In this document: positions 16,360-52,435 of the stretch, piece by piece
Position numbering within the stretch: the stretch's first letter is position 1
How the letters are laid out: each line of letters starts with the position of its first letter
NCBI GenBank assembly: GCA_010909165.1
Contig: MU008192.1
Coordinates: 1-64,000, forward strand
DNA: 64,000 nucleotides
Reading direction: 5' to 3'
From: Anthoceros angustus
Lineage: Eukaryota > Plantae > Anthocerotophyta
Program-made: the position numbers and the translations under genes
The notes under the pieces: model-generated
Seen by the model: the letters and a program-made list of their open reading frames with translations, nothing else
Database searches by the model: none
Told to the model about the DNA's origin: nothing

Positions 16360-16780
<421 letters not shown>

Positions 16781-25228: not shown

Positions 25229-28200
25229 TCAAGGGCTCACATGCGCCACATGGGGTCCCAGCTGAAAAATGTTTCGACGAAGAATGGCTTGAAATGTTGC
25301 TTCCCATAAACTACTTGGCGCGGCTACTCCCGTAGAATCACCTATTGAGCTGGATACCTGTAAACACATACATACATGCATTATCACAATAATCGATCAT
25401 ACCAGACTCGAAAGCACTCATGCCAGGCGAACTGCCAAACCACAGATATCTTCACGGACCACTTTTACACAGGATGGATACCACATTTCCTATTAGTACC
25501 TTAAATGCTACGGCAGGCCATTCATACCTGTGAATGCTGATCACCTGTGATACCTTCTAGAACGTCTGCTTCCAGCCAGCCCTTTGAACCACATGCCATG
25601 CCATGGTGCATGCAGCGCCATACCAGTAACAACAAGTCTGCTACGCAAGGCCCATCTACTACTGGCACTATCTCTTTACTATAAACAAGTGCCTCTGGCA
25701 GCCAACCACTCAATGAAACCAGCTGAATCAGTCTGGACAATTGAGTACGTGCTGATAACTCCATGTCCTCTGCCTGTGTCACAAACGAGATTAACTGGCA
25801 TCACACCAAACGGCGTCCAGAATGCAAGTAGTGCAGGGTGAGAGAGATCTAGCAATTGACCTCCATTTGAAATAGATCATTTGCTGACTTCTTACCTTCA
25901 TGAAGCCCACAGAAGGCTGCTGAGAGCGAAATGCGCTGTGGAATTGGACTATGCAATCTGCAACAAGGGTGCGGATAAGCTCTGCACACTGCAATGCCTC
26001 TTGTTTTTTACCATGCTCGAAGACTAGCTGCAAGATCTGTGTAGACGTTTGAGACATCAGACGCACACTTTCTAGAGCACAATGCTGCATCTAAGTTTCG
26101 CATCTTCGTTCACCTCAAAGAGGAAAGGATTGCTGTTGAAGCACTCCATCAGATAGATGTGCCTCGGTGAAGAAACCTGTTTTGGTAGTATCTGCAGATG
26201 GGCACTGTTAGGACCACAAGGTTCCACTTTGCAAAACAAAACATACTGGTGATTACAAGCGTTCCTCTTGCCTCCTCATATTGCTCCATGGTCATGGGCA
26301 TTTCATGTGGTGTTTCCATGCGAGTCGTTATAATAGTAGCAAGTATTGTGGCAGGGTTGCTGGGCCAACATTGACTGCGTCCCATGTCTGAGGCTTCAAG
26401 AATTCCCTTTTCCAAGGTGGCCCTTAGAAGGATGCCAAGCTCGCTGGCTATTCTGGTACTAATTCTACCACCTCGTTGCCTTTGTGAAGGTATATGCATG
26501 TGAAATCGCAGTAAATCAGCTCCCCCACAGGATGAGGACACATCTCCTGTCATAGAGACAAATCACTCAAAGTTCAGGAAGGGTCCAGAATACATACTTT
26601 CGGCCGAAACTGAAAGAATATTTGACCCAGCCTAGCAGAAGTTAAGCAGTCAACAGTTGCACTTGAGGAAAATCTCTGGATGACATGTCTATAAGCATAC
26701 CATTCTGGGATGAAACTCCTGTAATCCTCTGCTCACGCCCATGCAGGCTGAAGGAAAAGTCCAGGAGCTTGTTTACCATCTGCAAAAATTACATCCAATG
26801 CTCTGATACTCCAGAATTTTGCTAGACGGAGAGGGACCTCACGAAATAGAGAGGAAGAGGGTCAACACCTTACCAAAGTGAAGCTCGATGGTCTGAGAGC
26901 TCCATGATCAGCAATTATCTTCTTCAGCTGCTCAATGATTCGCACATATTGCCACCTCGAATCGACACACAATGTCAACTTCCCATGATTTACTGCAGAA
27001 TTTGCATCAGGTGCATAAAACTTTGCGTACAGCTCTTGAAGGAGGGGGAAAAAAATCTTCAACACACGCTGCAACCAAGTACACAGCCTTAGCGGCAGAG
27101 CAGGGGTCACTAGACCCTGTTTTCTACAGTTTACTTCACTGACAGACATCTAGCTTGAGAGCTGACGTGACTCACGACCACTCAGTCCAGCTCTCTGCAC
27201 ACAATTTACATCTGGCATACACACATATACATGGAAACTGCCTAAGGTAAAATAACAAGACAGCTCTTGAATCACGAGATGCACGGCTCCTATACGATGG
27301 TTCAGGAATATGTGCCACACTAATATTCTGGTGCACAAGGGCCTAAAGCAACATAATCTAGAGAATGCAGTAACATAATCTAGAAGCAATGCATTCGACA
27401 TTGGCTGGCTCATTCCCTTACAGTCAAGTAGGCCTGCCACAACGTGTAATGAGCTGCAAACTGGCAAACGCAGAGAAAAATCCATGTAACAAACCTTTAG
27501 GTGCAGTGCAGCTCCGAGTTCACTTTTCACATCAGAGGGGAGGAGGCGGAGAACGTTTAGCACAGAGATTTTCATCTCCCATGCTTGCTCCCGGTCCAAC
27601 AAGGCAATATACTGTGGCCATCCACAATGGAACAGCTGGTTCATAAGTTGCCATACAGACTTCCATGCCAATCCTGACTGCTCCTCCTTCTCAAACACCA
27701 GATTTCCAAGGAAAGTTGCAGAGACAAGCGTGTTTTTCCGCCACATGGTTGGTAAAAGTAGTACCCTGACGGTAGCCATTATAGACAAGACCTGCAAAGG
27801 TCACAAAGATGTCATCACATTAACTTAGTATTTGCATCTGCGAAAACGAAAGAGTTGCCACTTTTGAGTTCCAGGCGGCCATTCAATTGATACTTTTGCA
27901 GTTTTGAAGTCGTGAACAAACAAAAAACAGTTGAACATTTCTAACACATGTTTCCAACCATGAGCAAGCTGTTCCATCAATCAACCTGCTTTTCATCAAA
28001 GATTTGCAGCAGTCTGCAAAGCTTCAGTGCCCAGGATTTCACAGCAGGCTGCATGGCCCAGTGTGACACAAGAAACTGTATGACGTTCATCATGATCGAC
28101 AGTTTCTCCATGGAATTCACATCGATCTGGCCGTCCGCTTGAAAAGTTACACCCGTTCCCTGGACCAGCAAGTCTGCAATAACATTCTCCTCACAGACCA

Positions 28201-30444
28201 CCATGCCAAGGGAACAAATCTGAGAAAAGATAAATTTAGCTCGCAGGCATGACCAAGCAAGCTGGCTCCCTTCGCACATCTTATGATCACCTGTGATTGC
28301 ACGATCCAGGAGAAGTGCCCTGCTATCCATCAACATAAAAATTTCGTTTCTAGCACCCTCACACGAGCTACAAACCCCTGCAGGTGATAATTCCAGCAGC
28401 ACATCCCAAAGGAGATGCATATTCTCCTTCAGGTTGTCCACACACAAAATAGCTCCATTACTGTGTGCCAAATTGTTTGCATTTCTGGCAAAGCTAGCAC
28501 CTGTAAAATCAAAGCCCATGTTTCAGCCAGGTGAAACCAACCTACGGAAATGATATATTCTCCTGAGCTATTACAACAAGCATTCCCAGTCAACAACCCT
28601 GCTCTGCTGCCAATGTCCTATCAAGATTTTTAAGCTAAATATGCATACATTACCAGGGCATCCGGAGAGAAGGCAATGTGCAAGTTGTGACAAGATAACT
28701 TCTAGGAGTTCGCATGCAACTCCACCCACATCCTCAACCAGCTGAGTCTCATGCTGTTGGGCACTGCGGTATAGTAAGACTACAATATCTGCAGCCACAG
28801 GAGCAAGCTCTGCAAGCCGCCTTTTCAGTAGTGCAAATAGCCAGGTCCTCACACATTGTTCCTCAAAATCCAGACCCTATCACGAGGTTTTGATAGAGAT
28901 TAGAGAACTGTAATATTGCACAAGTGCACAATTCTTCAGCAAAACACAGGACTGCCCCTATTGCAGGCAAGCTTGATCGCTAAAGTAGAATCTAATGAGA
29001 TGTCAGAATGTTTCCAATCCAACATGAGTTAGAGCCACATCAAAGATGCAGTTCTGAGCTGGCAAGAAATAAAAAAAAAGCAAATATTATATCCCACGAG
29101 AAGCTGCTCTATTCTCAGCAAGTCAGAAACAGTACAGACACCGATCTGGCACTGCAGATGATCAGCAAAAAAGTAATAACGTTGGGGTTAGCGTCTCACC
29201 TCAAACACCTCCGAAATTTTGGGAAACAAACTTGCTTCTTCCTTACATCCCAGGAGCCAGTTGCACCATATTAGACCAGTCTGATAGTCACGGGGAAGCA
29301 CCCAAAGACGGACAAACGCACGAAGAAGACATCTACTAATACTTGCCAAAGCAAGCCACACGCTTATATAGGTGGTCGGAACAGACTCCCCGCTCTTCCA
29401 TTTCTGCATGCTCGAAGGCTCCTCCCCTCCAGCGTTGAAAGATAAAGAGGGCAAGGACGGCAATAAAACGAAGTATAACTGCTCCGGCATCCTGTTTCAG
29501 CAAGTTGTCATTACCCAAGTCAGGTGACCCGCACTAGTAAGAACAAAGGCAGGTGATTAATCCGTCAAGAGCAACAGAATGTATAGAAGGCAAAGGGGTG
29601 AAGGAATGAGAGCGGAGTCAAAGGAAAAGAACAGTGATGACAGTAAACACTCTTCCCACCTTAATGCGGCAAATTCGAAGATGCTGACCCGGCGCATATA
29701 AACAGCCAACATTCCAGAACCTTTTGATTGCGTGTCAAGAAGCTCAGACGTGAGGTCTTCAAGGACCACCCTGATGACGCCAGTAGGATCGGCTATGGTC
29801 AGATAGGCAACCAGCCAATCCATTGCAGCAACATTGAGGTCGCTGTCAATTGCGGTGTTTGCAGGGACCCAGAGCAAAGTCTTGACTAGCCACCGGTACA
29901 ACCACATGCTCTTGTTGGAATCGGAAGCATCGAGTTGAACATGTTTCGCAAAGGCAGAGTGTGTAGCGTTCGCACAAGATGCTCCACTGTCCGAATGCTT
30001 GTCATCATCGTCTACACCCGGGGCCAGAGGCCGCTGGTCCAAGCTAAGCAGCAGACAGTGGCTCACAAACTTGATGAGGACAGAGACGTCACGTAGAGCG
30101 AGCCGGACTTGTATGCGCTCCGCCGTCCGAGAGCCGGCTTTGCCAGCGGAGTCGACTGCATGCACCTCTTGTCTGGACCTCTTGACGGGGGAAGCAGCCG
30201 GAGAGACATGCGCAGCTGCCTTGCGTTTCAGGGGGGCTACAGCAAGCAGGGCAACAGGCTCTGAAACCGGAGCCGCGGAATCAGGCAATAAGGCATCCAG
30301 GCGCTCCAACAGGGCAATGGCCCAACGAAGTGACCGCAAGGTGCAGAGGCTATCCGGCTGGCTCTGGTGGAGGTCGAGGAGGCGCGTGTGGCAGCGCTCT
30401 TGCAGAGACTGCCAGTCTCCTTGCTCCGAGGCCTGCTCCGACAT
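25229..30444 (-). CDS. Uncharacterised large multi-exon, Leu-rich (probably alpha-helical) protein
   Basis: Chain of minus-strand ORFs separated by short GT-AG introns. Probable start MSEQASEQGDWQ at 30444; last exon VSSSIGD...HVSP* ends at 25229. Family not recognised. Confidence 0.7.
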
Positions 30445-30632
30445 GTCGCAAGCTTCCACCCAGACCCCCGTGCTCGGCCTTTGTTCAACCAGCACTGTGT
30501 TGTGCAGGTTCACATGGTACTCGGATTGTTTTAATCCGAGGTCTTGTTTGTTTATCACAAGTTTCTCGAGTTCGTGAATAGATACGCCCTTCAACAGGTG
30601 TCACATCGTGCCATACTTGCGCCGGATCCAAC

Positions 30633-32630
<1,998 letters not shown>

Positions 32631-32732
32631 TATTGCTCGCAATTTGCGTAGCAGGTGTTGTGTGAAAATCGCTCTGAATGAGTGATGGGAGAAAACAGTC
32701 CGGCACGATAACATAATTAGAATGCTCATGGG

Positions 32733-35700
32733 TTATTGATCAAGTTCGCCAGCGGCAGTTTCGTACACTGCTTGTCTGACAAATTGTCCTCGAATCCGTG
32801 GCCGCTGCTCGGCCAATCGTTTCCTACTCTGATAACGCACCTGCACATTTGAGTATACATCTCAGATCATAGTTCCAAGCCTGAAGAACAACGTTCATCT
32901 TCCTCTCAAAACAGCGCGAGATTTACCTTCTTCTCGAAACAACGCTCCTTCCTCTTCTGCCGGAATTTGTTCAACGCGGCCTCCCGTCTTGAGAACTTCG
33001 TTGTTTCTGAGCCAACTAAAAGGGCACTGCTCCCACCACCATTCCCATTGCCAGTTCCACCCACACCCGCATCTCCCGGTCCATTCCCATTACCGCTTCC
33101 ACTGTTGCCGTGAGTCACGTTATTTGTGCCACTGTCCCCATTTCCATTGTTGTTCCCACTGTCTCCGTTTCCTCCTTTACCAGCATTGTTACTCCCAGAA
33201 GCACTTCCATTCACACTTCCATTCAAATTGCCATTGCTTCCATGGCAGTTGCTACTACCACTCTGGGCATGGCATCCATCTGGAACATGTCCAGCCACAT
33301 TTGAAGAACCACACCGGTGACCGGGTCGGGCACCAGCACATCCAAGCATCTTATCGTCTGGCTGCTGCGCTAACGTGGGAGGTTGAGGTACAATTGAATA
33401 GTGGTGGTGATGGTGGTGCAGCTCCTCATCAGGATGATGCTGATGGAGACCATGGTGCTGTGTATATCGATGTGCCTGTGGATGTGAAAGCTGTCCATGC
33501 TCATGGAAAGGAGCCAACCTGTCAAACATTTCCCTGTCAGGGCGCTGACCTGACCCAGATGTCCAAGGTGAACTTCCTGGGTGAGGGTAAAACCCTGGGT
33601 GCATGGATGGCCCAAACGCTGCGGACAGCCCGTCATAGGTCATGCCGGAAGGAGGCAATGACCCTGACACTGGTATTGCTTGTCCGGAGCCAGGCACCAA
33701 AGATACGGCCTCATCCTTAACATGTCGAGTACCCAAAAACCCATCCTGTCCTGACGGCCCAACGATCGAAGAGCTCATATCTTGCCCATTGCAATTGTTG
33801 GACATGCTTGGGTGAACTAGAAACTGTGTCGAAAGTTCACTGCCTTTGCATGATCCTGCCCCGTCTTTTCCCAATCCTATGTGCAATAAACTCGGGTTGG
33901 TTGTTCTCTGAACCCCATGGGAAATAGATTGACCTCCAAATCCAGCAGGAAGTCCATTCAGAAGACCATTACCCACAGTGAACTGTTGGGGCATGTTTAC
34001 AACACTGGTGCTGTACCTGCGAGCTCAGAGCAGAACCTAGCATCAAGACCAATCAACCAACAGTTGGGGAGACATACCAACACCACAAAGAGACACACAG
34101 ACAGCAAACAGAACTGGAGCACACATATATTCCTTGATCTAATGCGCCCCACAGACAAATATCCTCTCCACACCTTCGATACCTTGAAAAGGCAGACCCT
34201 CCAGATTGTCTCAGAACTCGCCGGTCGTCAGTTTCCCCCTCATGATCTCTTGCAGCACGAGGCCTTTTCAAAGACAACTCCAGAGTGGGTAAGGAATTGG
34301 AGTCAGACCCAGTCTTCTTTGTAACAGGGCTGTTACTTGCACCCATCTCGCCTTCTCTCTCTGTAGCCTCACCAGGATCTGCTGCGTCTGCCTTAGACTG
34401 GCGGGAAATAGTGGCAGTCAAATCCATAGGCTCAGGACACTGTTCATAAGATGGGGTCGCAGCCACCCCAGCATCCTTTCTGACATTCAGGTCCTCCTGA
34501 CATTTGTCTGCTCCAGCTGCATCCTCCACAGTACCAGCTTCAGCTATCAGAAGGGCAACTGCATCTCCCATTCCCCCTTCCAAGTTCAGAGTAGCTCTCT
34601 TTTTGACTGATTCCACATCATGTGCTGATTCACTTTCTGCACACGTACAAGCAACCGAGTTGGAGTAATGAAGGAACCAAGGAACATGGACAAAAGGACA
34701 GATAGGAAACCAATGCAGCACAGGTAGTTCACCACTGGGTTTTCCCTGAGACTCATGCCCCTCTTCTTTCTTGCTGGGGCGCTGACCTTGAGAATCTTCC
34801 ACCCTTGCCTGTGGAGGAGGAAAGTCACATCTAGGAGAGATCCCATGCGACGGGCCACCCGGGTCATGTCCACCTCCCTGTTGAGGACTTTCCACTTCCA
34901 TAGCTCTTTTGGTCCAAGAACTCTGCAGTGTACACAGCACGCTGACAAATGGTGATTAAAATTGATTTTTTTGTGTGTTTCAGGAGTGTATTGTTCTTAT
35001 AACTGTTCGAAATGGTAAGTTCAACGTGTTTGATCAAGACCCCTCTCACAACTACGTCTTCGTTTTTGAGACAACATACAACACAATTACCTGCGTTCCA
35101 CTGCCATTGTCGCTCCCACCTCTCAGGTTTAAGCCACTACTTCCATTATCACTGCCATCGTTACTGCCACTGTTGTTCCCAGAACCAGCTCTGCTCTTTG
35201 CCCGCATCACTTTTCCGGTCTGGCTACCACTGCCGCTGCCGCTGCCACTTGACTAACAGGAACACAACAAACCTTCAATTGTGAGGCCATGAATGAGACG
35301 CTGGAAACTGGAACAGCGCATTCAGCAGACATAAGCTTTCAATTGACAACCCCTGTACTCACACTGTGGCACTTCCTCCAGACGTGTTGCCACAGGTTCT
35401 TCAACTCATTCTTCCGGACAGGCTTCACCAGGTAGTCCGCAGCACCTTTCGATAGACATCTGAAAACGAAGTCCATAGAATCATGTGATGACATCACTGC
35501 AATAGCAAGTTATTGGCACACACTAGTCAGCCACTCGTTCGAAGTCTATATAGAAAGATGGCAACAACTTGAACAGATACCAAACGATTGACTTACTGAC
35601 AACAGGAACTCGCTTCCCAGGGTCAAGACTCATGATCCTGGAGAGCAGTCCAACACCGGATAGGCACGGCATAACTACGTCAGTTAGCACAAGGTCAAAA

Positions 35701-36470
35701 TGGTTGCTGGGCGTTTCCAATAGCTCCCAAGCTTGCAATCCATTGCCTGCCGATGTCACTGGGAACAGCACAAATCAGCCACGGAACACGGAAATGAAAG
35801 GACCCTCAGATCACAGATGCCATCGATGGGCATCGCACACCATTCTGGCTCGTTAACAACGAAGTCTAAAGGAAGAAAGATGAAAAAGAGAGGGATACTT
35901 TAGAAGCAGGCTAAGGTTGCGACTACCTTCGTAACTACAGTTTCTCAAGAGCGCGCCGACGACGTGCCTGGTGGAGTCATCGTCCTCCACCAGCAGCACC
36001 CTGAGATGACGCTGCGGGAGAAAGCTTTCCCAACCCTCGCTGGCAACTTGATGGGCTGTATGTTGCGGTTGGGTTGGAGGCGGTGGCGGTGGCGGTTCGG
36101 TGGGGGGTTGGGAGCCCACTTCGGCAATTGTACCATCCTCGTCGTCGGAATCATCCTGCACTTCACGGTCCCGACAGTAATCCTCCTCCGACGCTTCCAA
36201 CCTGCCGTCGGGCCCACTTCTAGCGGCTGTGGAGGCTAGCAAATTGTGGGGTGCAGCCTGCGTCGCGAGAGCGTTAGCTGAAGTGTCGCAGGCTCGGATC
36301 TGGTCACTACATTCTCCGGCAGTGTGGAGTCCATCCTGTACAGCATCCGCAGCACACAGCCCCGAGGCAGCCACCCCTACCGAGACAGCTCCATGCTGGA
36401 GATCTCGGTCACCGTTGTGAAAACATCCAGCGATTGGCTCAGTCCGGCCCTCGCCCAAATTTGCAGTCAT
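32733..36470 (-). CDS. PRR: Clock-type pseudo-response regulator (receiver-like domain plus CCT), PRR3/7-like
   Basis: [25 protein letters not shown]|[11 protein letters not shown]; [21 protein letters not shown]; LELSLKRPR; [12 protein letters not shown]; CCT domain [20 protein letters not shown]|[20 protein letters not shown]. Confidence 0.93.
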
Positions 36471-36851
36471 GAGCAGGCAAGCTCTCAGCTGCGACCTCCG
36501 GGGGGGTGAGTGCGAGGGAGCTAAGCGTCTGCGAAGTACCTCTGCTTCCCCAAGAAGAAACAAACATCCGTGAGGCACCTGTGTGGAGAAGCCGGGGGGA
36601 GCAGGCTGCGCAGGCTCATTTCCCGGCGCACACAGCAAACAGCTCCTTCTCCATGTACAAATGCTTGCCCGAAACACATAACACGGAGAAGAGTACAAAT
36701 CATGAACGCATATGCGATGCAAATCAACACCTGGGATGCTAGAGTAGGAAAGATGCAACAAGCGAGAGTAGGCGCACACGGGCACGACGGCGCGCAGGCA
36801 ACCCCAGTTAGCGCGGCGGCAAATCAAAAGCAGAGACGGGAGAGGACGCAC

Positions 36852-37042
36852 AGATATTTCTCAAACTTGGCACAGCCATGTCAGCCATATCAATTTTCGG
36901 TATGCCATATGATGCCATCCCATACCACTATCTTTTGCTTGCACCTCATTTGCACAGCCGGGCGCAGTGACCGTGAGTGGCACATGCCACGTCCAGTTCC
37001 ACCGGCTTGCGCTTAAGTAGGAGATATTATGAGTCCACGTGG
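36852..37042 (-). promoter_or_regulatory. Candidate evening-element core and G-box/ABRE motifs upstream of PRR
   Basis: AAATATCT on the minus strand at 36852-36859, GCCACGT at 36986-36992 and CCACGTGG at 37035-37042. These are short motifs and could occur by chance. Confidence 0.35.
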
Positions 37043-37598: not shown

Positions 37599-38041
37599 CT
37601 AGGATGGTGTCACACCTCTTGATGTAGATTCCTTGCCGATTGCGCGGCGCTTGAGATCCACAAAACAGCCCCGACCCCCTACCACATTGTTCACCATCGA
37701 CTCTTTGGTGAACCTCTTGGGTCCCGCATAGCTCTCAACCTTTCCAACCTCTTCCGCCTCGATTGGCCAGTTGTCTAGCGTATTGAGATGGAGATCCATG
37801 AATTGAACTGCTCTAGGATCCACTTCTACTGAAATCATCTTGCGGCCAGACTTGAGAGTGGCTACTATTCCTGGTCCAGAGCCTGCACACCCATCCAAGA
37901 CCTACTCGCCTTCCATTGTGTAGAGCTCAATCAACTTCCTCAACAACCTGATAGGCTTCTGGTAAGGGGAAACTACCCTATCATTCCTATCATCTGACAA
38001 CTTATGTTCCACAGCCTTCTCCTCAAAGCAAGTTGTCAACA
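37599..38041 (-). pseudogene. C-terminal half of a beta-class N6A/N4C DNA methyltransferase (copy 2)
   Basis: Single frame: VVSPYQKPIRLLRKLIELYTMEGE*VLDGCAGSGPGIVATLKSGRKMISVEVDP, matching motifs X, I and II of N6_N4_Mtase (HPTQKP..GDxVLDPFxGSGTT...GRxxIGxE). Confidence 0.8.
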
Positions 38042-38247
38042 TGTGCCATCATTCATCACTTCCTTGCAGAAACACAACCTCTCCATCTCGCAATCCGCGC
38101 ATGTTGTGGAAGGGACATCTTCGAAATTCCAAGACCTTAGAGCTCCTAAATGTGCCATGAATGCTCCCAAGCCTCCCACCAAATTTCCACATAATCCTTC
38201 GCAGCAAGTTCCAAAGCTTGCAATTCCTCTCTTCAAGGCTTTGGTCA
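38042..38247 (-). repeat. Putative LTR interrupting methyltransferase copy 2
   Basis: TG...CA bounded and preceded on the minus strand by a PPT-like TTGAGGGAGGAGTGA. No partner LTR found in the window. Confidence 0.4.
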
Positions 38248-38721
38248 TCACTCCTCCCTCAAGACGTCCACTTCAATCCACAATTCCTCCTCAAATTCTT
38301 CCAAATTCCTTCAAGTGATTCTCTCCCCACCTCGTTCCTTGCCGTCTTCCATCTCCAGTCTGCTCACATCAAGACAAAGCAAAGCCTCGAGATGCAACTT
38401 GAAGCAACCTCCTTGAGATAGCTCTTCCACTTGACTCCTCCTTGCAACATAGGCAACCCCATCTTGAGCACGGTACCAACCCGTCCGCTGCATACAAAAA
38501 GAACACTTCTGCTGACGATAAATTGGAAGCACTCGCCTGCCCTTCAATGGCCTTAGAAATCTCCTAGCAAATAGCTACACAACCTGCTCAACAACGTCAA
38601 TTACTTCCTCCCTTGATCCTAAAAAGAAGCATCCGAGTCCTCCAAGCTCGAATTTAAGCTCCTCCTCTCAACCACACAGTCCGCAAGGCAACTGTACCTT
38701 GTCAAGGTAAAATTTGAACCG

Positions 38722-40230
38722 GCGGAATATACATCAAGCGGCTTTATGCATGAATATACGCTGAACCGGGTTGTGGATGGTCACTAAATGGCTGTTCCTG
38801 TATGTAGTCGCGATAATGTGTTCAAAATTATGGTCAAAATCACATTCTACTTCAAATTTACAAGGAGCTAGCAAAAAGGGTCGTGGGGACATTCCTGTGG
38901 GTTTGCAATGATTTAGCACCGACTTCACACTCCTGGGATCCGAAACCCGATGTTGTTTACAATATATTGTCTTATAATCAAGGGAATGGAAGCCACTTTT
39001 GCATCCGGGTTCACATTTACGGTGGCAAGGTATGGAAAATGTGGTTCTCTATGGTAGAAAGGTGAGTAACAGCACGGCGGGGCGATGCCGGCGCCCATCG
39101 ATGCACACCTTGCGGCAAAGGCCCTTAGCCATTCTCGGCACCAAACAGTTCAACATGGTTTTTTTGATATCCTGTGAGCGGAGAAATCTCTTGTAGTGTA
39201 CCATGTTCTTGTGAACCTCAACAAAACCACAATTTGGCATACGCTCGAAAGGGCTGCCAAGTTTCACGGAAACATTGGGTTGGCGCCACCATTAAACGAA
39301 TCCACTAACCGAACAGAGCCATGGCAGCCCCGTGACAATGGAAGGGGCCACTAGGAATAGACGACAAAATGTGGTGCGGAAGGAGTGCGGCATCGCAAAG
39401 GGTGTTAAAAAGGGTTGCGCCATAAGTTCTTAGGAGCGACCATGATCGGAATATACATCAAGCGGCTTTATGCATGAATATACGCTGAACCGGGTTGTGG
39501 ATGGTCACTAAATCGATGTTCATGTATGTAGTCGCGGATAATGTGTTCAAAATTATGGTCAAAATCACATTCTACTTCAAATTTACAAGGAGCACCAGCG
39601 CCAAAAGGGTCAGGTGGGGACATTCCCCAGGGGTTTGCAATGATTTAGCACCGACTTCACACTCCCTTTGTGCTGGGATCTGGAAACCCGCCGACAGTGT
39701 TTACAATATATTGTCTTATACTGAAGGGGAATGGAAGCCACTTTTGCATCTGGTTCACATTTACGGTGGCAAGGTATGGAAAATGTGCGGTTCCTCTATG
39801 GTAGAAAGGTGAGGAAACTACACCGATCGATGGGCGCCGGCATGCCGGCGCCCATCGCATGCACACCTTGCGGCAAAGGCCCTTAGCCATTCCCTGTGCA
39901 CCAAACATGTCCAACATGGCCTTTTAATATCCGTGAGCGGAGAAATCTCTTGTAGTGTACCATGTTCCTGTGAACCCCAACAAAACCACTTTTTGGCATA
40001 CTGGCCTGGAAAAAGGGCTGCCAAGTTTCACGGAATCATTGGGTTGGCGCCACCATTAAACGAATTCCACTAACTGAACAGAGCCATGGCAGGCCCCGGT
40101 AACAAAGGAAGGGGCCACTAGGAATGGACGCACAAAATGTGGTCCTGAAGGAGTGCGGCATGCCATCGCAAAGGGTGTTAAAAAAGGGTTGCGCCATAAG
40201 TTCTTAGGAGCGGACCATGACTGGAATATA
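38722..40230. repeat. Tandem duplication of a ~730-780 bp subterminal block
   Basis: Copies start cggaatatacatcaagcggc at ~38723 and ~39448; a third ggaatata lies at ~40223. Confidence 0.9.
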
Positions 40231-40250: not shown

Positions 40251-43200
40251 TCACTCCTCACCTGACTCGAGACCGTCGGGTTCTCCATGCCCAAGACCTG
40301 CGTCATCCCCATCATCCTCACTGTCCACCGATGAGGGAGTGCAGGGTTGAAGATGGGGACGGAGGGCACTTAACTTCTCTTTGATAGCTTTTTTATCCGC
40401 CGCGTACTGATGTTTCCTAGAAGTGAGATTGAACCCATAGTACACAATGACTGTCTTATGGACAAACAACTTCTGAATGTTGGGAGGCTTCCATGCTTTT
40501 GCACCTTTGTTGGTAGGAGGTAGTTCTCTCCTCCGGTCCTAACAAAGTATTCCCCGGTACTTGCCCTCGTATGCATCTGTGCTCGGTTCGCCACCGGCAC
40601 TGTGAAGTAGGGGTCATCGGTCATGTGCACACTCAAGACCTTTGCAACCAATGCCCTGTGAGTGTCCCCTCACAAGGTGACAATAAACATACCTTTTTAT
40701 CTCCATGATGTCACCATTCATCCGCTCGACCTCTTGTTCCCGTCTTTCCACACTGTAAGCACCCAAGTACATGTCCGTGAGGCACGCCTCGCAATAAGGC
40801 TTCGTCCAATATAGCCTCCTCCGAACACTGCAGTGGTACAAGTGCATCTGCTGCGATCTGTCATACCACTTCCACGCCTTTTCGCAAAGGCCGATGTTAT
40901 TGTCCACAATAGTTGCGATCTCCTCTTGATCCTCCCAGTCACTCCACCACTCCTCCTCACCGGTTAGATATGTTGATGCTTTTGCAAACCCTTCTTAAGT
41001 GGTCTACTCCATCCGGTGAGGCTTCCATCAACGCCTTTCTTGTCCTTGGCCTCAGAGCTAGCAGGTTGTAGGTCCAATCTCAAAGCATTTGGAATAAAAG
41101 ACAAGAACTCCAGCCCATCTTCTGTTTCCCATAACGGTGAGGTCGAATACTGTTTACTCCGAATAACGGTTACTTTACCCCTGCGACTTTTCCTCCCGCG
41201 TGATTTTGAACTGGTGTTGGTATGATAGATTGTTTAGCTTGCGAACCGCAGCTTTAAACTTCCGTGCAGCTTTCCCTGTTTTCAAAGGCCAGACGAAAGA
41301 ACGGAAGTCTGGAACCTCGGTCAGGACCTTCACTTCTGGGTTTGGCGTGAAAGCCTTGCTCAATATATCCTGCATGACGGGAAGAGTTTTTGCCTCTTTG
41401 TGCTTCAAATGTTTGGAAAAACACGAGAACATTTGGTCCACCTGGTCATGTGTGTGACCTACAAGAAGAAAGCCCACCTTCACTTTTTCAAAGTCCCCAC
41501 TCCACGAGCATATTCGATAAGCAAGCAGCTTGATTCTTGTTCTCCGACATGTGTTGTCCAGTTGCAAATATAGAACCTTGGGAAGTAAGCCAACATATGT
41601 ATGTATCACATCTTGGATAATGCATATGGTTAAATTAGCATCATTCCGCAAATTTGCGAGTGACACGCCTGACTTGAACGTGTGATTGTGGATCATACAC
41701 CCCACCACATGGGATAACACGCTCTTCCTTTAGCTCCTTAGGCCATCTAAGTATATGCGGTAAGGATGTTTTTTCGATCCATGCCATCGATACATAACAA
41801 CATGTACTTGTGAGGCTCGGTGTATCCTTTCGCTCGATGTTTTGTCAACTTCTTCCGCCTCCTCCATAAGCTTTATGCGATGTTTGTTCAACGCGTCCCG
41901 ATATATATCGCCTTCAACCAAACATCATGTCGTGTCCATCCATGAAATATAACGTCATCGTAACCAGACCAACCAACGCCATTTGCAATGGGCGAATAAC
42001 CTCGTGAGTGGGCAAGTAGGCAAAGGGCAATGCATGGCAACCCTCGGAAGGGTCATGCCCCCAACGGCGAACCTAGGGATCCACCGTTGGCAGGCAGATC
42101 CGGGTCCTTAAATCCCATCGGTAGGCGCCGCATGCCGCCGCCTCCCTACCGCCTCAATTAGGGATGTGGCATGCCGCCCAAGCTCCTTTAGGGTTTAGGT
42201 TCAGCATGTTGCCGCCTCCTCCCCCATTGCACCCCTCACCCATGAGGGCGGCATGCCGCCTCCTCCCTCCTCCCTCCCACACATGAGGGCATGCCGCCGC
42301 CTCCTCCGAACCCGGCCCCCCTCCCTCCCCTCCGCCTCAATGAGGGTGGCATGCGCCTCCCTACCTCCTTTAGGGTTTAGGTCCCGGCATGCCGCCCTCC
42401 CTCCTCTCGCACCCCTCCACCCATGAGGGCGCCGCATGCCGCCTCCTCCTCCCTCCCACGACCGGGGCATGCCGGCCCCTCCCTCCTCTCCCCACCCGAT
42501 GGCGTCGCTGCACCGCCCGCCTTCGAGGGGCCGAACCGGTTGTGCCTCGACCAAGGTTCAACCTCCACCATCACAACGCCCACCGTTAGATATCGGATGG
42601 CCCATCACTTCTAACCTTTCACCTCTTTATACCATGCCGAAAAACGGTGTGGAGCGATGAGCTTACCTTGATCATCCGATCCGATTCAATGTTGAACTTT
42701 AGACCGCGAAAGAGAACATGTTGAAAACCGATTGGATTTGGGTATCTTCACGCTTGAAGTTCTCGCTCCCATAGTCTCGTAAAGTAAGCATCAAAATATC
42801 TGCAGCCCTTTTGCTCCATGCCACATTTGTATTGTGTCCACACTTCTAGTTTGGTGAAAGTGTCGAAGATTGTAGACTTCAACATTAGGCGCCCGCCAAT
42901 TGCGTAAATGTTGCATCCATCCATGCAATAGCGCCCAATGCATGAGAGGATTTCACCCGGGCTTGGCTTGCTACAATCCCATGGTGAATTCGATCTACGC
43001 CCTTCACCTCCTCGTACCTTTCCGACCCTATGCAATACACCCTTCTGAAGGATTTCAGGCAACACTTGATTGGAACCGGTGCCTTCAGGAAAGTACAGAC
43101 TTTGTCTTTGCCATTCGAACCATGGTCAGGTCTTACAAGGGTCTCTAGGAATGTCTCCCTCGGACCTTCCCAACCTAAGGAACCTTTGCCTCTCTTCCGA

Positions 43201-44599: not shown

Positions 44600-47500
44600 C
44601 TTCATGCGAGCTATGGCAAGTGGGCGGCGCGGAAGAAGGAATTGGCGGGTGGGAGAAGAAACCCCGCCGCATGTAGACAAACCAAAACGCCAAGAGACCA
44701 AAGGGAAGAAGGCGAGCGACCACGCAAAGGAGCCGTGCGTGGAGTGGATGCACACCAAAGTTCGAGCCGACCGGTGTTCCAATTCGAGCACATTCTTCAA
44801 AACGAGCTGCCGATGTAGCCGCGAACTCTCGTGGATCCGCGGGTCGGCAAAGGTGAAACGAAGGAGGCGAGGGAGGGAAATCGAGATGGCCAAGTCACAA
44901 GCCAGTGCGATTCTAATCCTCACCTTTTACGTTTGAGGAGACTGCTCAATTGCGCAGACACACTAACCGATTGATGAGACAATTCTCCGGAGAAGGACGC
45001 TTGTGACATGAGCGAGAAGAAGACAATGTGGTGTGGACACCCATGCTGAAATTGTGGATTTATGGCCACAATGGTGCTTTGCCGAATCAGAGAGCCTGGG
45101 TATGTGGTCCGGCAACTTTGATAGAAGCGGAAGGAGATCCGGATATTCTCTGGTGACTTCAAAGCCTTATGGGTTTGAAGCTTTTGGGTCGAGACTACGT
45201 GTGTTCGTGTTGAGCATAGCGTCTTGCATAAAAAGTGCGAGCCACGGAACTGCTCTTAAATTCGGAAGCTCTTCGACCAAGGATTGTAAGTGTGTGTCTT
45301 TGGAAGTCATTGATTTTGAAGTTTTGGAACATCATTGCATCCACTTAACACTTTTGCACTTCTAACGCTTGGGCGTAATGCAAGGAATTTTTATCGATGC
45401 TTATGTGAGGTGATTACAAGTTCTATCATCAATCACCGTGAGATGTCTTTAGAAGGACCGTGGGCTATCCGACTATGAATGGAAGGAGATGAGGACGAGG
45501 CAGTATGGACCCTCGGTGAAGAGGATGGCCCTATACCGGGCTTGGCACGGATGACGAAATGTCGGAGGACGGTGATAACTTGAGGGGCGAGATGGAATTT
45601 GCTTCCATAATGCCGGGCATCCATGTGCCCACTATTCCTTCCAATCCAGATGAGGACATGGGTCGCAGGCGGGAATTACTGCGGCAGAGCACATGGAGTT
45701 GGGTACCCACAGGCGGGTTTATATCGGTATGAAGGCATGGGAGGAGAGGAAGGGCGCCCGTGCGCCCTTCCCTCGCGCAGAAGGCGGCATCCAAGTACTA
45801 TGGGATGTGCGAGGGCACTGGGTTAGCTGCATCGGCCAACCAGCCGCCGGTGAACGGAGGGAGGCGCCGCATGCCGCGCCCGCTGGCCTTGGGACGAGAG
45901 GGCGGCATGCCGCGCCCCCGGCCTTGATGGAGGCGCCGCATGCCGCGCCCGCCGCCAGAGGGCGCGCATGCCGCGCCTCTGCCTTGGGACGCAGAGGGAG
46001 GGCGCCGCATGCGCCCCCCGCGAGGGAGGGCGCGCATGCCTCCCGGCCTTGGGAGCAGAGGGCGCCGCGCCGGCCCCGCCAGCCTGGGACACGGAGGGCG
46101 CCGCATGCCGCCCCGTGATGCGTGGAGGCGATCGGAAGTAGTGGGAAGCGAAACGAGTTCGACATATGCCGGGTTTGGGGCAGGTCAACAAATGTGGAGC
46201 CCGAAAGAGATTTGAGAAGGAAGAAAGGTGGCGCAGCAGAGCGGCAGACACATATCCCGACTATGCATGTCGCGATCGACGGGAGAGGCTGGAGGCCTCC
46301 ATTCGTGATGAAGATTATTTATGGAATATCGAAAGATACGGAAGAAAGTGGTTCCTAAAGCTTCTTGAAATTAGAGAATTTAAGGCGCATCCTTTCTTTC
46401 TCCGGATGCATGATTCGGATTGTGGATGAAGCTTGGACCAACCACTGCTCGAGTCATTTCGAAGGTAGAGTGGAGGAAGGTGTCGCCTCTACTATGCATG
46501 ATTGACCCATGAGGCAAACATTCAATCTATAGATGGAATAAGTTTAGAGCCAAGAAGTATGTCATGGGAGTGCTCGTGGCAATCACACCTATGCAATGAA
46601 GCATCCGCGACATATCTCCATCAAGGCCGATACCAATGGATGGAAGCCCATGTGTATTGTGGGCTCACTTTACGAGATGAGGGTTCCGCCACCACCACAA
46701 CACTATGTCCGACAAACGGCGGAAGATGAATTTCATTGAGCAAGTAAGGTACTTATAGATGAGTTGCGATTGCAAAGAGAGATGTCAATATGAGCACGGA
46801 AGTTCAACTGTATAAGGTGCTAGGCTTGATAGATGATGATGAGGCCGAGAGGAGGCGCCGGCATGCCGCGCCTCTGCCTGGGGGCCTGCGAGAGGAGGCG
46901 CGGCATGCCGCGCCCGCTGGCCTTGGGAAGCGGAGGGCGCCGGCATGCCGCCCTCCGCCTTGGGAAGCGGAGGGCGCGCATGCCGGCGCCTCTGGGGACA
47001 CGGAGGGAGGCGCCGCATGCCGCCCTCCGCTGATAGTGGGCGTGTCGGAGTAGTGGGAAGCGCAAAGGAGTTCGACATATGCGGTTTGGGGCAGGTCAAC
47101 AAATGTGGAGCCCGAAGAGATTTGAGAAGGAAGAAAGGCAAGCAGCAGGCGGAGGCAACGACATCCCGACTATGCATGTCGCGATCGACGGGAGAGGCTG
47201 GAGGCCTCCATTCGTGATGAAGATTATTTGCGGAATATCGGAGGCGATACGCGAAGAAAGTGGTTAAAGCAGTTCGAAATTAGAGAATTTAAGGCCTGCA
47301 TCCTTTCTTTCTCCGGATGCATGATTCGGATTGTGGATGAAGCTTGGACCAACTACACTCGAGTCATTTCGAAGGTAGAGTGGAGGAAGGTGTCGCCTCT
47401 ACTATGCATGATTGACCCGGAGTCTGACATTCAATCTATAGATGGATAAGTTTAGAGCCAAGAAGTATGTCATGGGAGTGCTCGTGGCAATCACACCTAT

Positions 47501-49520
47501 GCCGATGAAGCATCCGCGACATATCTCCATCAAGGCCGGATACCAATGGATGGAAGCCCATGTGTATTGTGGGCTCACTTTACGAGATGAGGGTTCGCCA
47601 CCGACCACAACACTATGTCGACAACGGCGGAAGATGAATTTCATTGAGCAAGTAAGGTACTTGCGAGATGAGTTGCGATTGCAAAGAGAGATGGTGTCAA
47701 TATGAGCATGAACGGAAGTTCAACCTATAAGGTGCTAGGCTTGATAGATGATGATGAGGCCGAGAGGATGAGCGATAAGCAAAACAAGGTCGATAATCGC
47801 ACATATCCTTTGCATCGCCAAACCGGAAGGGAGAGTGTGGGAAAATGTTGATAAGATCTTCACGAAGTGGGAGGCCATGGAGTTGCGTAACAAGCCAAAC
47901 ATGTTGTGCGACAAGCAAGAAAAGCAAGGGAAACGGAGGATGAGGCGAAGTCGGTGGACCAAAGTTTTGTGAAGCCAAAAGACATGCAAGGAAGCCTTGG
48001 CGAAGTTTTCGGTATTCCACCGGGTGAGACTGCCAAAAATGTTGATCGATGTCACCGAGAAGGTCTGACAGTCTCATAGACCTCAATGGTATGGCCAAAG
48101 AGATCACTCTTGGAAGAAACTACATGTGATCCAAGTGGCTATGGCGAAGCATCTAGGCTGCAATTCATTCGAGATGGTGAGGAAGGAGTACCTGCACTCA
48201 ACGGATGAAGTCATTGCGATTTCACCGCTTTCAAGGGAAGGTGAGTTTCTTTGTTCTTACCAAGATAGAACTATAGAGGCGCCGCATGCCGCGCCTCCCT
48301 TTCCCTATTGTCCCCGCAATCGACTTTCGGCAACCTCACTTGTTTTGTGTTATTTTGCAGCAAGTTAAAGATGTTGAAGACCAAAAGCTACCAAGATTTC
48401 CGCTTTTATATTAGAGGTCCACACATGGAAAGGGCTGGAGGATGAGCAGAGGGCACTTGCGGACATGGACATGGAGGAAGGGCTGCAATCTTTATTGTGC
48501 CCAAAACAGAGGAGTTAGTGAAGTATCAAGTGGTGCGCAGAGATGTGGCAGAAATGAGAGGGTTTCTGTGGAGTCGGAAGTATACAACGCTGGTGATGGA
48601 TGTCCCTGTGGATTCAACAAGGGAAGTATGATGTCAAACTTGAGCAGCAAATGGCAAACATATTTCATTCCTTCCATGACATGACAATGTGCGACGAGAT
48701 CGAATGATAGTAATGCATGGTGTGGAAGAGCGCATATTGTCGTGAGAGTATGAGGAAGTGGTGTGCGGTGGAGGCATGGTCTCATTTGTTTGGGACAAAA
48801 CTAATATGCACAATGACCAAGGAGGCTTTGACACATGGAGTACATCACATCAGTGGGGTGGGGTGCACGAGCAAGAAGACAAAGGTGTCCATGCCGAATA
48901 CCTTGCGTGGCTCTTTCAATAATGGGCGAGCGGTTATTGCACACGTGGTGAAGAAGTTATTATACATGTCGACAAGTGGTTGTTTCCGTATCGAGGCCAC
49001 GGGTCTAATGATGAAGTTGATCAAGAACTTCCAGAAGGAGATTGGATATTAGATGCGTGGAGTGGAACAACGACATTAGCGGCACTCCTTTGTGGCCGAA
49101 ATTGCATTGTGGAGGTTGACAAACGCCGTGTGTAGTTCATTCCGCAAAGGATTCATGGCTATGAAGTTTTACCGGACGCAGAGGAGGAGAGACCCATGAG
49201 CCACACCGAGGCCCCACCCACCTCGGGCAAAAGAATTGAGCTTGTCCGAGAAGGATGCATCCTGTGCCCGTAGTCCCACTTGGGTTGAGCAGATGAAAGA
49301 GAAGACCGGAGATCTTAGATGATCGCCAAAGAAACCCGCATTGTGGCATCCCGACTATTTGGAGAAGAGCAAGGAGGATGCTCGATATCACGGAAATGCT
49401 ATGGTCGAAATTTGAGGATCCCGAGGATGCTCGACCAAGGACGGAAGTTGTGTTAGATAGCGTGTCGACAATGCCTCCCGAGCCACCCTGCCGAGAATCC
49501 TCCTCAGAGGGAAGAGTCTA
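44600..49520 (+). pseudogene. Cargo gene: ParB/Srx-like domain plus beta-class amino DNA methyltransferase, frameshifted as assembled; 5' end uncertain
   Basis: GNHTYA..AHVYCGL..TDHN..MNFIEQVR (47478-47660); TLVMDVP[C/Y]GFNKG (~48590-48625); FVWDK (~48786-48799); PY[Q]KP-like (~48986); GDWILDAWSGTTTLAALLCGRNCIVEVDKR (~49037-49126). Confidence 0.75.
46130..47765 (+). repeat. Tandem duplication of the ParB-like segment (~46130-46850 and ~47045-47765)
   Basis: Two near-identical blocks, each preceded by a GCATGCCGC-rich spacer. Confidence 0.9.
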
Positions 49521-50059
49521 GTTTAGTTTTGAAAGTACCATAACCCGCATGGTTAGAACTCGCATCGATGCCACCGCTATGCCTCCTTCTTTAACCATGA
49601 GCATTGTTATTCGCTTTGTCAAGGATGACTCGACGGCCGCAAAATATCCGAGAGCTCGTTTCACACCTTTAAGACATCTGTCGGCACCGCATTTAGAGGT
49701 CCGTAATGCACAAATATACCCACATTCGTGTGAAAGGGAACCGCAACCCTGAAGCATTAAACTTGCAGACAACCGGAGTGGATGGGGAACCCGAATCTGG
49801 TCCCGGGTTTTCGAAAGCGGGTTCGTATATTCCGCCGATTCAAATATTATCTTGTTCTGGTATTCACTTGGTGTCTTGTGGTAGGGAAAACCCGGGGCAC
49901 TCCCGAGGTCCTCCCACTATAGCGGCCACACTTATCCCAATCGCCGCTCAGACGCTGGGTTTCGTCCCATGAGACTTGTGTGAAAGTTCGAGGTCTTGTG
50001 ATGCCCGATCACACCGCACAACTCTCGCCTTCTCAACAAGCGCCCACTCTCTACAGCCT

Positions 50060-51420
50060 GCACACACCTAAAATCGCCAACCTCGACCCACAACGACACA
50101 AAACACCATGGTCACCGCAGCAGGAGCCTACCACGGGCGCCTGTGGACCCCCGTTCACACCGCGATTTCGTCCCTACTTAAGACCAAACTCACCACAACG
50201 ACACAACACAATTGCGTCCCGCCTCCAGAGTGCTCACCACGGGCGCCTGTGGACCCCCGTTCACACCGCGATTTCGTCCCTACTTAAGACCAAACTTCAC
50301 CTACAACGACACAACACAATTGCAGGTCCACAGAGCCTACCACGGGCGCCTGTGGACCCCCGGTTCACACCGCGATTTCGTCCCTACTTAAGACTACTCT
50401 TCCACCTGTGAGCTTTACTTGCAGGGATTCGTCCCTTAGGCTCGGTGGCCTTCCACTAACACCTACACCTCTAATCCTCTACTCTCCTCTCCTATGCAAA
50501 TGCACCTTTGCAATCGCCCGAAAATCGCCAATCCTCGACCCACAACGACACAAAACACTGCGGTGTCCCGCCGCAGCGAGGGAGCCTACCACGGGCGCCT
50601 GTGGACCCCCGATCCACACCGCGATTTCGTCCCTACTTAAGACCAAACTTCGACCTACAACGACAACACAATCAGTGTCCTCACAAAGAAGAGCTCACCA
50701 CGGGCGCCTGGGGACCGGTTCACACCGATTTCGTCCCTACTTCTAAGACCAAACGACCTACAACGACACAACACAATGTGTCCTCCAAGAAGAAGAGCCT
50801 ACCACGGGCCTGTGGACCCCCGGTTCACACCGCGATTTCGTCCCTACTTAAGACTACTTCTCCACTCTGTGAGCGCTTACTTGATTTGGGATTCGTCCCT
50901 TAGGCTCGCCTGTGGCCTTCCACTAACACCTACACCTCTAATCCTCTACTCTCCTCTCCTATGCAAATGCACCTTTGCAATCGCCCGAAAATCGCCAATC
51001 CTCGACCCACAACGACACAAAACACTGCGGTGTCCCGCCGCAGCGAGGGAGCCTACCACGCGCCTGTGGACCCCCGATCCACACCGCTGATTTCATTCCC
51101 TACTTAAGACCAAACTTCGACCTACAACGACAACACAATCAGTGTCCTCACAAAGAAGAGCTCACCACGGGCGCCTGGGGACCGGTTCACACCGATTTCG
51201 TCCCTACTTCTAAGACCAAACGACCTACAACGACACAACACAATGTGTCCTCCAAGAAGAAGAGCCTACCACGGGCCTGTGGACCCCCGGTTCACACCGC
51301 GATTTCGTCCCTACTTAAGACTACTTCTCCACTCTGTGAGCGCTTACTTGATTTGGGATTCGTCCCTTAGGCTCATGTGGCCTTCCACTAACACCTACAC
51401 CTCTAATCCTCTACTCATCT
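50060..51420. repeat. Higher-order tandem repeat: ~105-bp monomer x9 in three ~467-bp units
   Basis: Core ccacgggcgcctgtggacccc..cacaccgcgatttcgtccctacttaagac recurs nine times. The ORF track repeats with an offset of 467 (50508 and 50975). Confidence 0.9.
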
Positions 51421-51449
51421 TCTCATCTCCTCATCCTCTTCCTCCTAGT

Positions 51450-52435
51450 CTAACCTCGCCTGGCCACTGCTCGCACAACCTGGGTCCGCCTCCACCAAGT
51501 TCTTCCTTGGGCTTGCTATGAGTTTGACACAGACAATGAGAACCTCCAGGAGTCTTTCTAGTCTACCCTCAAGCCGAGAGTTCTCGGCATTTGCCACACA
51601 CCCAAAGCAAAGCAATTTCACAAAGAACCATTCACAAGGGGAGCAACTCGCTTAGGCACTTGCACGAGCAAGTCCTCCACCAAGCACTCCGACCACCGCG
51701 ACTTCCTCTACTGTGACTGTGTTGGCTCAGACGAAATTCCTCAGAATGGCAAAGGACTCGGTGAGCGTGGAAGCGCAAGACATGATACTTTACTTTGTGA
51801 AAACCTCCTCCTCTTATAGGAGGCCTTCCACATAACCTCCCTTGGGTGACCCTCCAGTCACCTTTTCCAATATTCTATTATTGCCTACCACAAGATTTAA
51901 TGTCCGGCACCTAAGTCTATTGTCCGCATTTCTTGGTAAATCCTATTCTAACCTGGGCTGGCCACTGGCTTCGACCGCCTCACGCACAACTGCCGGCCTC
52001 CACCAAGCAAGTTCTTCCTTGGCTGGTGGAGTTTGACACCACCGAGCGCCACTGTGGAGTCTTTCCCTGGCCTCGATCTCCGAGTGTTCCCTCGGCACGC
52101 CACACACCCAAAGCAAAGCAATTTCACAACAACCATTCACAAGGGGAGCAACTGCCAGGCACTTCGAGCAAGTCCTCCACCAACACCACCGCGACTTCCT
52201 CTCTACTGCACGCTGGCTCACAAATCCTCAGAATGGCAAAGGACTCAAGGAGGGTGGAAGCGCAAGACGTGATACTTTATCTGAAGTCCTCCTCTTACAG
52301 GAGGCCTTCCACATACAACCTCCCTTGGGTGACCCTACCGCAGTCACCTTTTCCAATATTCTATTATTTCCTACCGCCAGATTTAAGGCCCGGCATCTAA
52401 GTCTCATTCGATCCTAGGTAAATTCTATTCTAGCA
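51450..52435. repeat. Two ~500-bp direct repeats, LTR-like
   Basis: The block ccacacacccaaagcaaagcaatttcac...aggaggccttccacata...cggcacctaagtct occurs at ~51590 and ~52100. Confidence 0.8.

What the first reader, a model, noticed from the sequence alone, without database searches (positions are those of the whole stretch)
48480..49140. Complete beta-order methyltransferase motif set with a variant DVP[Y/C] catalytic loop
Joining frames gives motif IV TLVM-DVP-[C/Y]-GFNKG, then FVWDK, PY[Q]KP-like..MMKLIKNF, motif I GDWILDAWSGTT and motif II GRNCIVEVDKR. This catalytic-before-SAM-binding order defines beta-class amino-MTases. A leading Asp (DPPY-like) is more typical of N6-adenine enzymes and SPPY of N4-cytosine enzymes, but the rule is not absolute. 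The ORF track does not show this domain because it is split across frames.
Basis: partly seen in the sequence, partly recalled or inferred. Interest (0 to 1): 0.82.

Follow-up and report, generated by a model that had tools for sequence, protein, structure and literature searches.

The report
Plant transposon carrying bacterial-type DNA methylase
The motifs are real and form the tail of an intron-containing gene inside an 11-kb jumping gene of a land plant, which likely marks its own DNA with methyladenine, but the 'variant' catalytic loop is a common type and this gene-in-transposon layout is already known from a brown alga.

Summary
The motifs are at the stated places, in beta order. Read through its breaks, 48518-49190 aligns end to end to a family of spliced amino-methyltransferases: score 96, against 23-36 for 24 controls.

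The domain ends a long plus-strand gene with an upstream domain that is likely ParB-like. The gene lies inside an 11.15-kb element with terminal inverted repeats (38703/49854), a DUF7869 DDE transposase on the opposite strand, and 27 copies of a palindrome core.

13 of 80 related transposon loci carry the gene. All 9 that cover motif IV read ADIPYGF, and the domain is under strong purifying selection. One relative folds like CcrM, M.MboIIA and M.RsrI.

The loop is not novel. D[IV]PY is common in phage enzymes, and DIPY is motif IV of the HindIII-like N6-adenine enzymes. One of 8 frameshifts hits the residue after DVP: Cys in the window, Trp in a run contig, Tyr in relatives. It stays unresolved. 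The breaks look like long-read error.

The layout is published for Ectocarpus Sola1-1_Ec32, and this scan noted it before in this and other genomes. Self-methylation is untested.

The parts
38703..38732 (+). left terminal inverted repeat of the transposon
   Evidence: 27 of 30 identical to the reverse complement of 49825-49854, E=3e-4 between the two flank regions
49825..49854 (-). right terminal inverted repeat; 4-bp flanks TTGT / TTCT (3 of 4 alike, not a clean target-site duplication)
41060..41857 (-). DDE transposase core, DUF7869 (Sola1-like); further 5' parts likely extend to about 43.9 kb (inferred)
   Evidence: PF25273 E=1.2e-35; 132 of 264 columns identical to a profile of 12 relatives, 7 frameshifts, no stop; named relatives from Adiantum and Riccia at 42-43%
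45479..46130 (+). likely 5' part of the accessory gene (acidic start, then a palindrome cluster, probably intronic); start codon inferred, no homology support
   Evidence: three-frame reading; 0 tblastx hits in 82 loci
46480..46760 (+). first copy of the likely ParB-like domain (GNHT..VYCGLT..HN), part of a 910-nt tandem duplication
   Evidence: score 80 against controls 25-34; duplication
47390..47900 (+). second copy of the likely ParB-like domain plus middle helical region of the accessory gene
   Evidence: score 78 over 47541-47894 against controls 25-34; tblastx to L016 and L031; GNHTY at 47486
48241..48360 (+). likely spliceosomal intron (GTGAG ... TTTTGCAG) holding one palindrome copy
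   Evidence: splice-like ends seen in sequence; not shown by RNA
48518..49190 (+). beta-class amino-methyltransferase domain (motif IV 48599-48612; motif X about 48983-49000; motif I about 49046-49072; motif II 49094-49126), 8 frameshifts and 2 stops in this assembly
42127..42475 (.). cluster of the GC-rich palindrome (core GCATGC, typical form GGCGCCGCATGCCGCGCC); further clusters at 45865-46110 and 46860-47020, single copies at 39840, 40158, 48284
   Evidence: CGGCATGC (either strand) 27 times in the element against 3 in the other 53 kb; Markov simulation mean 1.1, max 5 of 200; contexts

Best explanation
This is the C-terminal beta-class amino-methyltransferase domain of an accessory gene, likely spliced, inside an 11-kb cut-and-paste transposon of a land plant; the intact protein would likely bind the element's repeated palindromes through a predicted ParB-like domain and put N6-methyladenine on the element's own DNA, likely to resist host silencing. 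Shown: the motif set and order, homology to an intact family along the whole domain and upstream, the terminal repeats, the opposite-strand DUF7869 transposase, the palindrome excess, purifying selection in relatives, and the beta-class fold of a relative's model. Inferred: that the frameshifts are mostly long-read assembly errors (about 0.75); that motif IV of this family ends in an aromatic residue (Tyr in relatives; about 0.75); that the target base is adenine (about 0.75); that the upstream domain is ParB-like (about 0.7); and the self-marking, anti-silencing role (about 0.4, untested anywhere to my knowledge).
For: Family homology: window score 96 against controls 23-36; upstream domain 78-80 against 25-34; in a 54-row tree the window joins the 6 transposon proteins at 100/99. 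Association: 13 of 80 transposase loci carry the MTase or its upstream domain (10 MTase, 11 upstream, E<1e-3); 10 of the 23 loci of 6 kb or more; 12 of 13 on the strand opposite the transposase. Motif IV is ADIPYGF in 9 of 9 loci covering it, 8 distinct. Selection: pN 0.04-0.26 against pS 0.64-0.87 over 10 pairs, 9 saturated. Class: relative L076 passes the PF01555 cut-off (37 bits against 26.7); Atlas 0.97 to PF01555 clusters; model pLDDT 70.5 matches CcrM Z 18.1, M.BceJIV 17.8, M.MboIIA 16.8, M.RsrI 15.8, with unrelated folds under 6 (Foldseek E 6e-11). Adenine: with motif IV masked, phage DIPY and DVPY sets score a median of 34 bits against the family profile, DPPY 15.6 and SPPY 4.7; DIPY marks N6-adenine beta-class HindIII-like enzymes (PMC12294265). 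Assembly noise: repeat copies differ by about as many 1-2-nt gaps as substitutions, with no transition excess; unique host genes keep long open frames; run X1 contigs carry indels at 48645, 48702 and 48852, near three inferred breaks.
Against: The residue after DVP is not resolved. The window gives Cys. The deeper X1 contig has G at 48609, which would read Trp, but it does not restore the frame. A shallower contig lacks two bases there and would read D-V-P-G-F. X1's platform is not on record and it may be the source run. Two stops remain in the read-through. ParB identity is weak: PHROG ParB-like E=0.027 in 2 of 6 relatives. Palindrome arrays are not universal: L021, complete from repeat to repeat, and L016, L018 and L030 show no enriched repeat, while L015, L024, L028 and L031 repeat a different motif. 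13 of the 23 long transposase loci show no such gene. The fold model used an alignment with 49 phage methyltransferases, which biases it towards that fold. N4-cytosine enzymes are only 3 Z units lower (N4CMT 15.1, M.PvuII 14.7). The tree flags long-branch joins.
Confidence: 0.55

Rival explanations
1. The gene is of the same kind, but this copy or lineage is catalytically dead: the breaks and the Cys are real, and any product only binds DNA or is not made.
For: Literal Cys, 8 frameshifts and 2 stops; no X1 contig shown restores a full D-V-P-aromatic frame; an older remnant next door has real decay stops; window branch long, 2.0.
Against: The transposase core has 7 frameshifts but no stop and 50% identity; the indel-rich, transition-poor spectrum is not how methylated plant repeats decay (established knowledge); X1 indels lie near three inferred breaks; relatives are under strong selection.
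Confidence: 0.2
2. The enzyme makes N4-methylcytosine (like bdelloid N4CMT or Marchantia DN4MT1), shielding CG/CHG sites of the palindromes from C5 methylation.
For: The palindrome is CG-rich; best PDB sequence hit of L076 is bdelloid N4CMT, E=0.044; some phage tblastn hits are annotated N4; the Ectocarpus paper leaves N4 or N6 open.
Against: Motif IV starts with Asp, not Ser; SPPY phage enzymes score lowest and form a separate clade; top three structural matches are N6-adenine enzymes.
Confidence: 0.17
3. It is a host-domesticated methyltransferase gene like Marchantia DN4MT1a/b, or bacterial or phage DNA in the assembly.
For: Land plants have taken up such genes (bioRxiv 2021.02.12.428880); the nearest prokaryotic group found is of phage type.
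Against: The gene lies between terminal repeats with a transposase; 195 X1 contigs with summed depth up to 277 suggest many copies; relatives have GT-AG introns; no close relative in viral or GTDB scans; the window is plant DNA.
Confidence: 0.04

Closest known systems
Sola1-1_Ec32 accessory gene of Ectocarpus (PMC12477816; passages; supplement rows)
   Same: TIR DNA transposon with a second gene on the strand opposite the transposase, joining a ParB-like domain to an N4/N6 DNA methyltransferase; self-binding and self-modification proposed there; its best transposase match is a moss Sola1
   Different: Land-plant host; about 11 kb against 21.5 kb; 30-bp against 282-bp repeats; sequence homology to the Ectocarpus protein not tested
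Plavaka accessory genes PAG2/PAG3 of Bostrychia (bioRxiv 2025.02.11.637652; passages)
   Same: Giant DNA transposons with a PF01555 methylase and a ParB-like protein beside arrays of inverted repeats
   Different: EnSpm/Plavaka transposase; methylase fused to SET and ParB fused to a 2OG oxygenase, in separate genes
Beta-class N6-adenine methyltransferases: CcrM, M.BceJIV, M.MboIIA, M.RsrI; HindIII-like DIPY enzymes (PMC12294265); phage D[IV]PY methylases
   Same: Motif order IV-X-I-II, fold, D-[IV]-P-Y loop
   Different: Eukaryotic, likely spliced, fused behind a long N-terminal region, 13-20% identity to solved structures
Marchantia DN4MT1a/b and bdelloid N4CMT (passages; PMC10406627 seen in listings only)
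   Same: Beta-class amino-methyltransferase in a eukaryote
   Different: DN4MT1a/b are host genes with TSPPY making 4mC (N4CMT likewise, recalled); this one is transposon cargo with an Asp-led loop

Membership tests
beta-class amino-methyltransferases (PF01555) | motif IV before motifs X-I-II | tested here: met
   48599 < 48983 < 49046 < 49094, collinear with relatives
beta-class amino-methyltransferases (PF01555) | motif IV ends in an aromatic residue | tested here: inconclusive
   Tyr in 9 of 9 relatives; in this copy a frameshift sits on the codon: Cys in the window, Trp or missing in X1 contigs
beta-class amino-methyltransferases (PF01555) | SAM-binding motif I (D-x-F-x-G-x-G-T) and acidic motif II | tested here: inconclusive
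   Window reads LDAWSGTT, one residue short; X1 has a 2-nt insertion at 49056; relatives read LDLFSGTGT or ADLCCGTGS
beta-class amino-methyltransferases (PF01555) | Pfam gathering score 26.7 | tested here: inconclusive
   Broken window piece 14.6 bits; relatives L016 and L076 37 bits
beta-class amino-methyltransferases (PF01555) | permuted Rossmann fold | tested here: met
   Model of relative L076, not of the window copy: Z 18.1 to CcrM, rmsd 4.1, 215 aligned; alignment held 49 phage enzymes
beta-class amino-methyltransferases (PF01555) | methyl transfer to DNA | not testable with these tools
   needs an assay
Sola1 DNA transposons | DDE transposase grouping with Repbase Sola1 | not tested
   DUF7869 with an intact DGMD / DN / HTHD core shown; the Sola1 label comes from earlier scan notes and recall, and no Repbase set was available
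Sola1 DNA transposons | terminal inverted repeats | tested here: met
   30 bp, 27 identical
Sola1 DNA transposons | 4-bp target-site duplication, AWWT preference (PMC3845634) | tested here: inconclusive
   TTGT / TTCT, 3 of 4 and not AWWT; 2 of 15 offsets reach 3 of 4; noisy sequence
Ectocarpus-type ParB-methyltransferase accessory gene | N-terminal ParB-like domain | tested here: inconclusive
   PHROG ParB-like E=0.027 in 2 of 6 relatives; no Pfam, NCBIfam or PDB ParB hit; profile comparison to one phage ParB within shuffles
Ectocarpus-type ParB-methyltransferase accessory gene | C-terminal N4/N6 methyltransferase on the strand opposite the transposase, inside the repeats | tested here: met
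Marchantia DN4MT1-type 4mC enzymes | TSPPY motif, stand-alone host gene | tested here: not met
   Asp-led motif; transposon-borne

The most novel reading that the evidence does not exclude
A young, multi-copy land-plant DNA transposon family encodes a working phage-derived D[IV]P(Y/W) adenine methylase that is steered by its ParB-like domain to the element's own GCATGC palindromes. It writes 6mA there to hold off CG/CHG silencing, which would make transposons a source of real, site-specific 6mA in plant genomes.
Probability: 0.25. Interest if true: 0.7.

Novelty: new member of a known kind. Interest (0 to 1): 0.3.

Why it matters
The catalytic loop itself is ordinary. The family is useful as a test case. 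Self-binding and self-methylation by ParB-methylase cargo has been proposed for algal transposons, and in the passages I read it is a proposal only. The intact, strongly selected relatives found here (L016, L031, L005, and L076 with an intron-free core) give ready constructs and candidate target repeats. I found no land-plant description in five searches of the held library, which lacks most subscription journals, and I did not read Iyer et al. 2011, cited for green algal cases. This scan has noted the same layout at least five times, once in this genome.

Tried and rejected
No whole genome is held, so copy number and other copies' motif IV could not be read.

Direct protein searches with window pieces found nothing: 0 of 8 and 0 of 647 candidates, and 0 at E<=0.001 among 1.84 billion representatives. 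PDB gave only chance hits. PHROGs gave E=0.021-0.24. Phage tblastn gave 13 records at E 0.3-5, 12 of them annotated as DNA methylases, all related jumbo phages.

Viral scans with the transposase or the MTase piece gave nothing real (two chance loci). Pattern scans for close prokaryotic relatives were empty. ADIPYGF in viral contigs gave 19 loci, none a methylase.

No RNA holder was listed, and run X2 laid 0 contigs; this is no evidence on expression.

The single-sequence fold failed (pLDDT 34). Mixed-exon alignment A2 was misaligned and not used. The ParB profile comparison had only one template and was uninformative. CpG observed/expected is 0.67-0.98 in the element against 0.48-0.57 in neighbours; young age alone can explain this, so I do not use it as support. 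tblastx found no second copy of this MTase in the window.

Rows dropped: L021 (identical to L018 in two exons) from the profile; L035 (stop codon) from alignment A5; phage loci with frames under 200 aa from the score comparison (47, 47, 45 and 44 of 120 per set); at most 12 per set were kept for the tree.

Full report
Setting. The window is land-plant nuclear DNA. It holds STT3, a CCT-motif gene, a prenyltransferase, an F-box gene and Copia elements, and the named transposase relatives come from a fern and a liverwort. No whole genome is held. The stretch 38.7-52.4 kb is full of short indels and near-tandem duplications of 724, 910, 467 and 486 nt.

Observation. Alone they score poorly: Pfam PF01555 E=0.033 on the last piece, and nothing in three protein searches. 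I reached relatives through the neighbouring transposase. It gave 47 proteins, an alignment and 80 metagenome loci. tblastx from the window hit L016 and L031 in these loci, and L016 proved to hold an intact, spliced gene. A profile of six such methyltransferases aligns to 48518-49190 over 234 columns with 69 identities. The score is 96, against 23-36 for 24 controls, with 8 frameshifts and 2 stops. In a tree the window joins these proteins at 100/99.

The catalytic loop. All 9 related loci that cover motif IV read ADIPYGF (8 distinct). In the window a frameshift falls on the codon after DVP. The literal reading is Cys. Of the run X1 contigs across the site, the deeper one (33.4) has G at 48609, which would read Trp but leaves the frame broken. 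The shallower one (11.7) lacks two bases there and also differs upstream. So this copy's residue is unresolved. The loop type is ordinary. IADIPYN and IADVPYN occur in about 2400 and 1100 stored viral stretches. Five of five tested DIPY proteins are full PF01555 members. With the motif masked, 71 of 73 long DIPY frames and 75 of 75 long DVPY frames match the plant profile at E<1e-5, against 29 of 73 DPPY and 12 of 76 SPPY. DIPY, DVPY and DPPY are intermixed in one phage clade. DIPY is also the published motif IV of HindIII-like systems, described as N6-adenine beta-class (PMC12294265, passages).

Class and fold. Relative L076 has no intron in the core. It passes the Pfam cut-off, matches PF01555 clusters in the Atlas at 0.97, and its model (pLDDT 70.5) matches CcrM, M.BceJIV, M.MboIIA, M.RsrI, N4CMT and M.PvuII at Z 14.7-18.1. 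The alignment behind the model held 49 phage enzymes, so the fold is not fully independent evidence. Among five relatives pN is 0.04-0.26 and pS 0.64-0.87, and their introns are GT-AG. The domain is therefore kept by selection in the family.

Context. Terminal inverted repeats lie at 38703-38732 and 49825-49854, with an unclear target duplication. The DUF7869 transposase is on the minus strand. On the plus strand the methylase is preceded by a likely intron (48241-48360) and by a region homologous to the N-terminal exon of the relatives (scores 78-80 against 25-34). That region is ParB-like by motif and by a weak PHROG match; three other checks did not confirm it. The core CGGCATGC occurs 27 times in the element and 3 times in the other 53 kb; simulation gives a mean of 1.1. 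Among the 80 loci, 13 carry the gene, including 10 of the 23 loci of 6 kb or more, and 12 of the 13 have it on the strand opposite the transposase. Several relatives repeat a different motif (GCATCGAC), and four show no enriched repeat.

Are the breaks real? Probably most are not. Repeat copies differ by about as many 1-2-nt gaps as substitutions, without a transition excess. The transposase core has 7 frameshifts and no stop. Unique genes, and the aligned C-terminal 81 columns of the older remnant next door, keep their frames. X1 contigs carry indels near three inferred breaks; only 12 of 75 indel rows were shown. X1's platform is not on record and it may be the source run, so this is suggestive only.

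Mechanism. I commit to a transposon accessory protein that docks on the element's palindromes and writes N6-methyladenine in cis to resist silencing. Anatomy, class and selection are shown. The base, the ParB role and the anti-silencing effect are inferred. The rivals are a dead copy (0.2), a 4mC writer (0.17), and a host gene or contamination (0.04).

Comparison with what is known. Ectocarpus Sola1-1_Ec32 has the same layout, and the same role was proposed for it (PMC12477816, passages; supplement rows). Bostrychia Plavaka elements carry related parts in separate genes (passages; bioRxiv supplements are closed and may bear on this). In the passages I read of Iyer et al. 2016, the ParB-fused eukaryotic methylases belong to a different (group 2) clade. 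Dam-carrying retrotransposons are a separate case (abstract and part 1 of 3 of Results). Marchantia DN4MT1 has TSPPY (passages). Five library searches showed no land-plant report. Earlier scan notes describe the same design in this and four other genomes; they gave me the Ectocarpus paper and the Sola label and are not independent support.

Verdict. The feature is real and the class call is right. The loop is ordinary and the architecture is known. New member of a known kind, interest 0.3.

Noticed in passing
window 37775-38400, minus strand: A second, older methyltransferase remnant of the same family just outside the left terminal repeat. It has SPYQKP, motif I and motif II, 31 of 81 columns identical, score 123, no frameshift in that part, and a stop at the Trp before motif I. 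Motif IV is not recognisable. Its 5' part was not found right of the element.
   Followed up: partly
window 50067-51424: Tandem array (467-nt and about 105-nt units) just right of the element, with a different 16-bp near-palindrome CCACGGGCGCCTGTGG: 4 exact copies plus variants. It could belong to the older element that the transposon landed in.
   Followed up: partly
window 38723-40230, 45961-47768, 51443-52432: Near-tandem duplications of 724, 910 and 486 nt whose copies differ mainly by short indels; likely assembly artefacts. The first starts inside the terminal repeat at a short internal look-alike.
   Followed up: partly
L016, L031, L076, L026: The accessory gene takes three arrangements relative to the transposase: divergent (most loci and the window), same strand (L016) and convergent (L076, L026). 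Intron positions differ too, which hints at repeated rearrangement or capture.
   Followed up: no
L015, L024, L028, L031, L008, L035: Relatives with near-identical methylases repeat a CATCGAC or GTATCGA core 3-15 times, a candidate shared binding or target site.
   Followed up: no
window 16330-16780 and 18640-19390: Long pure G+C microsatellite-like runs ((CCCGCG)n and (CCCGC)n-type), several hundred bases each.
   Followed up: no
window 20550-36900: Compact cluster of intact host genes: F-box, STT3, a prenyltransferase subunit and a CCT-motif gene (likely a pseudo-response regulator, name recalled).
   Followed up: no
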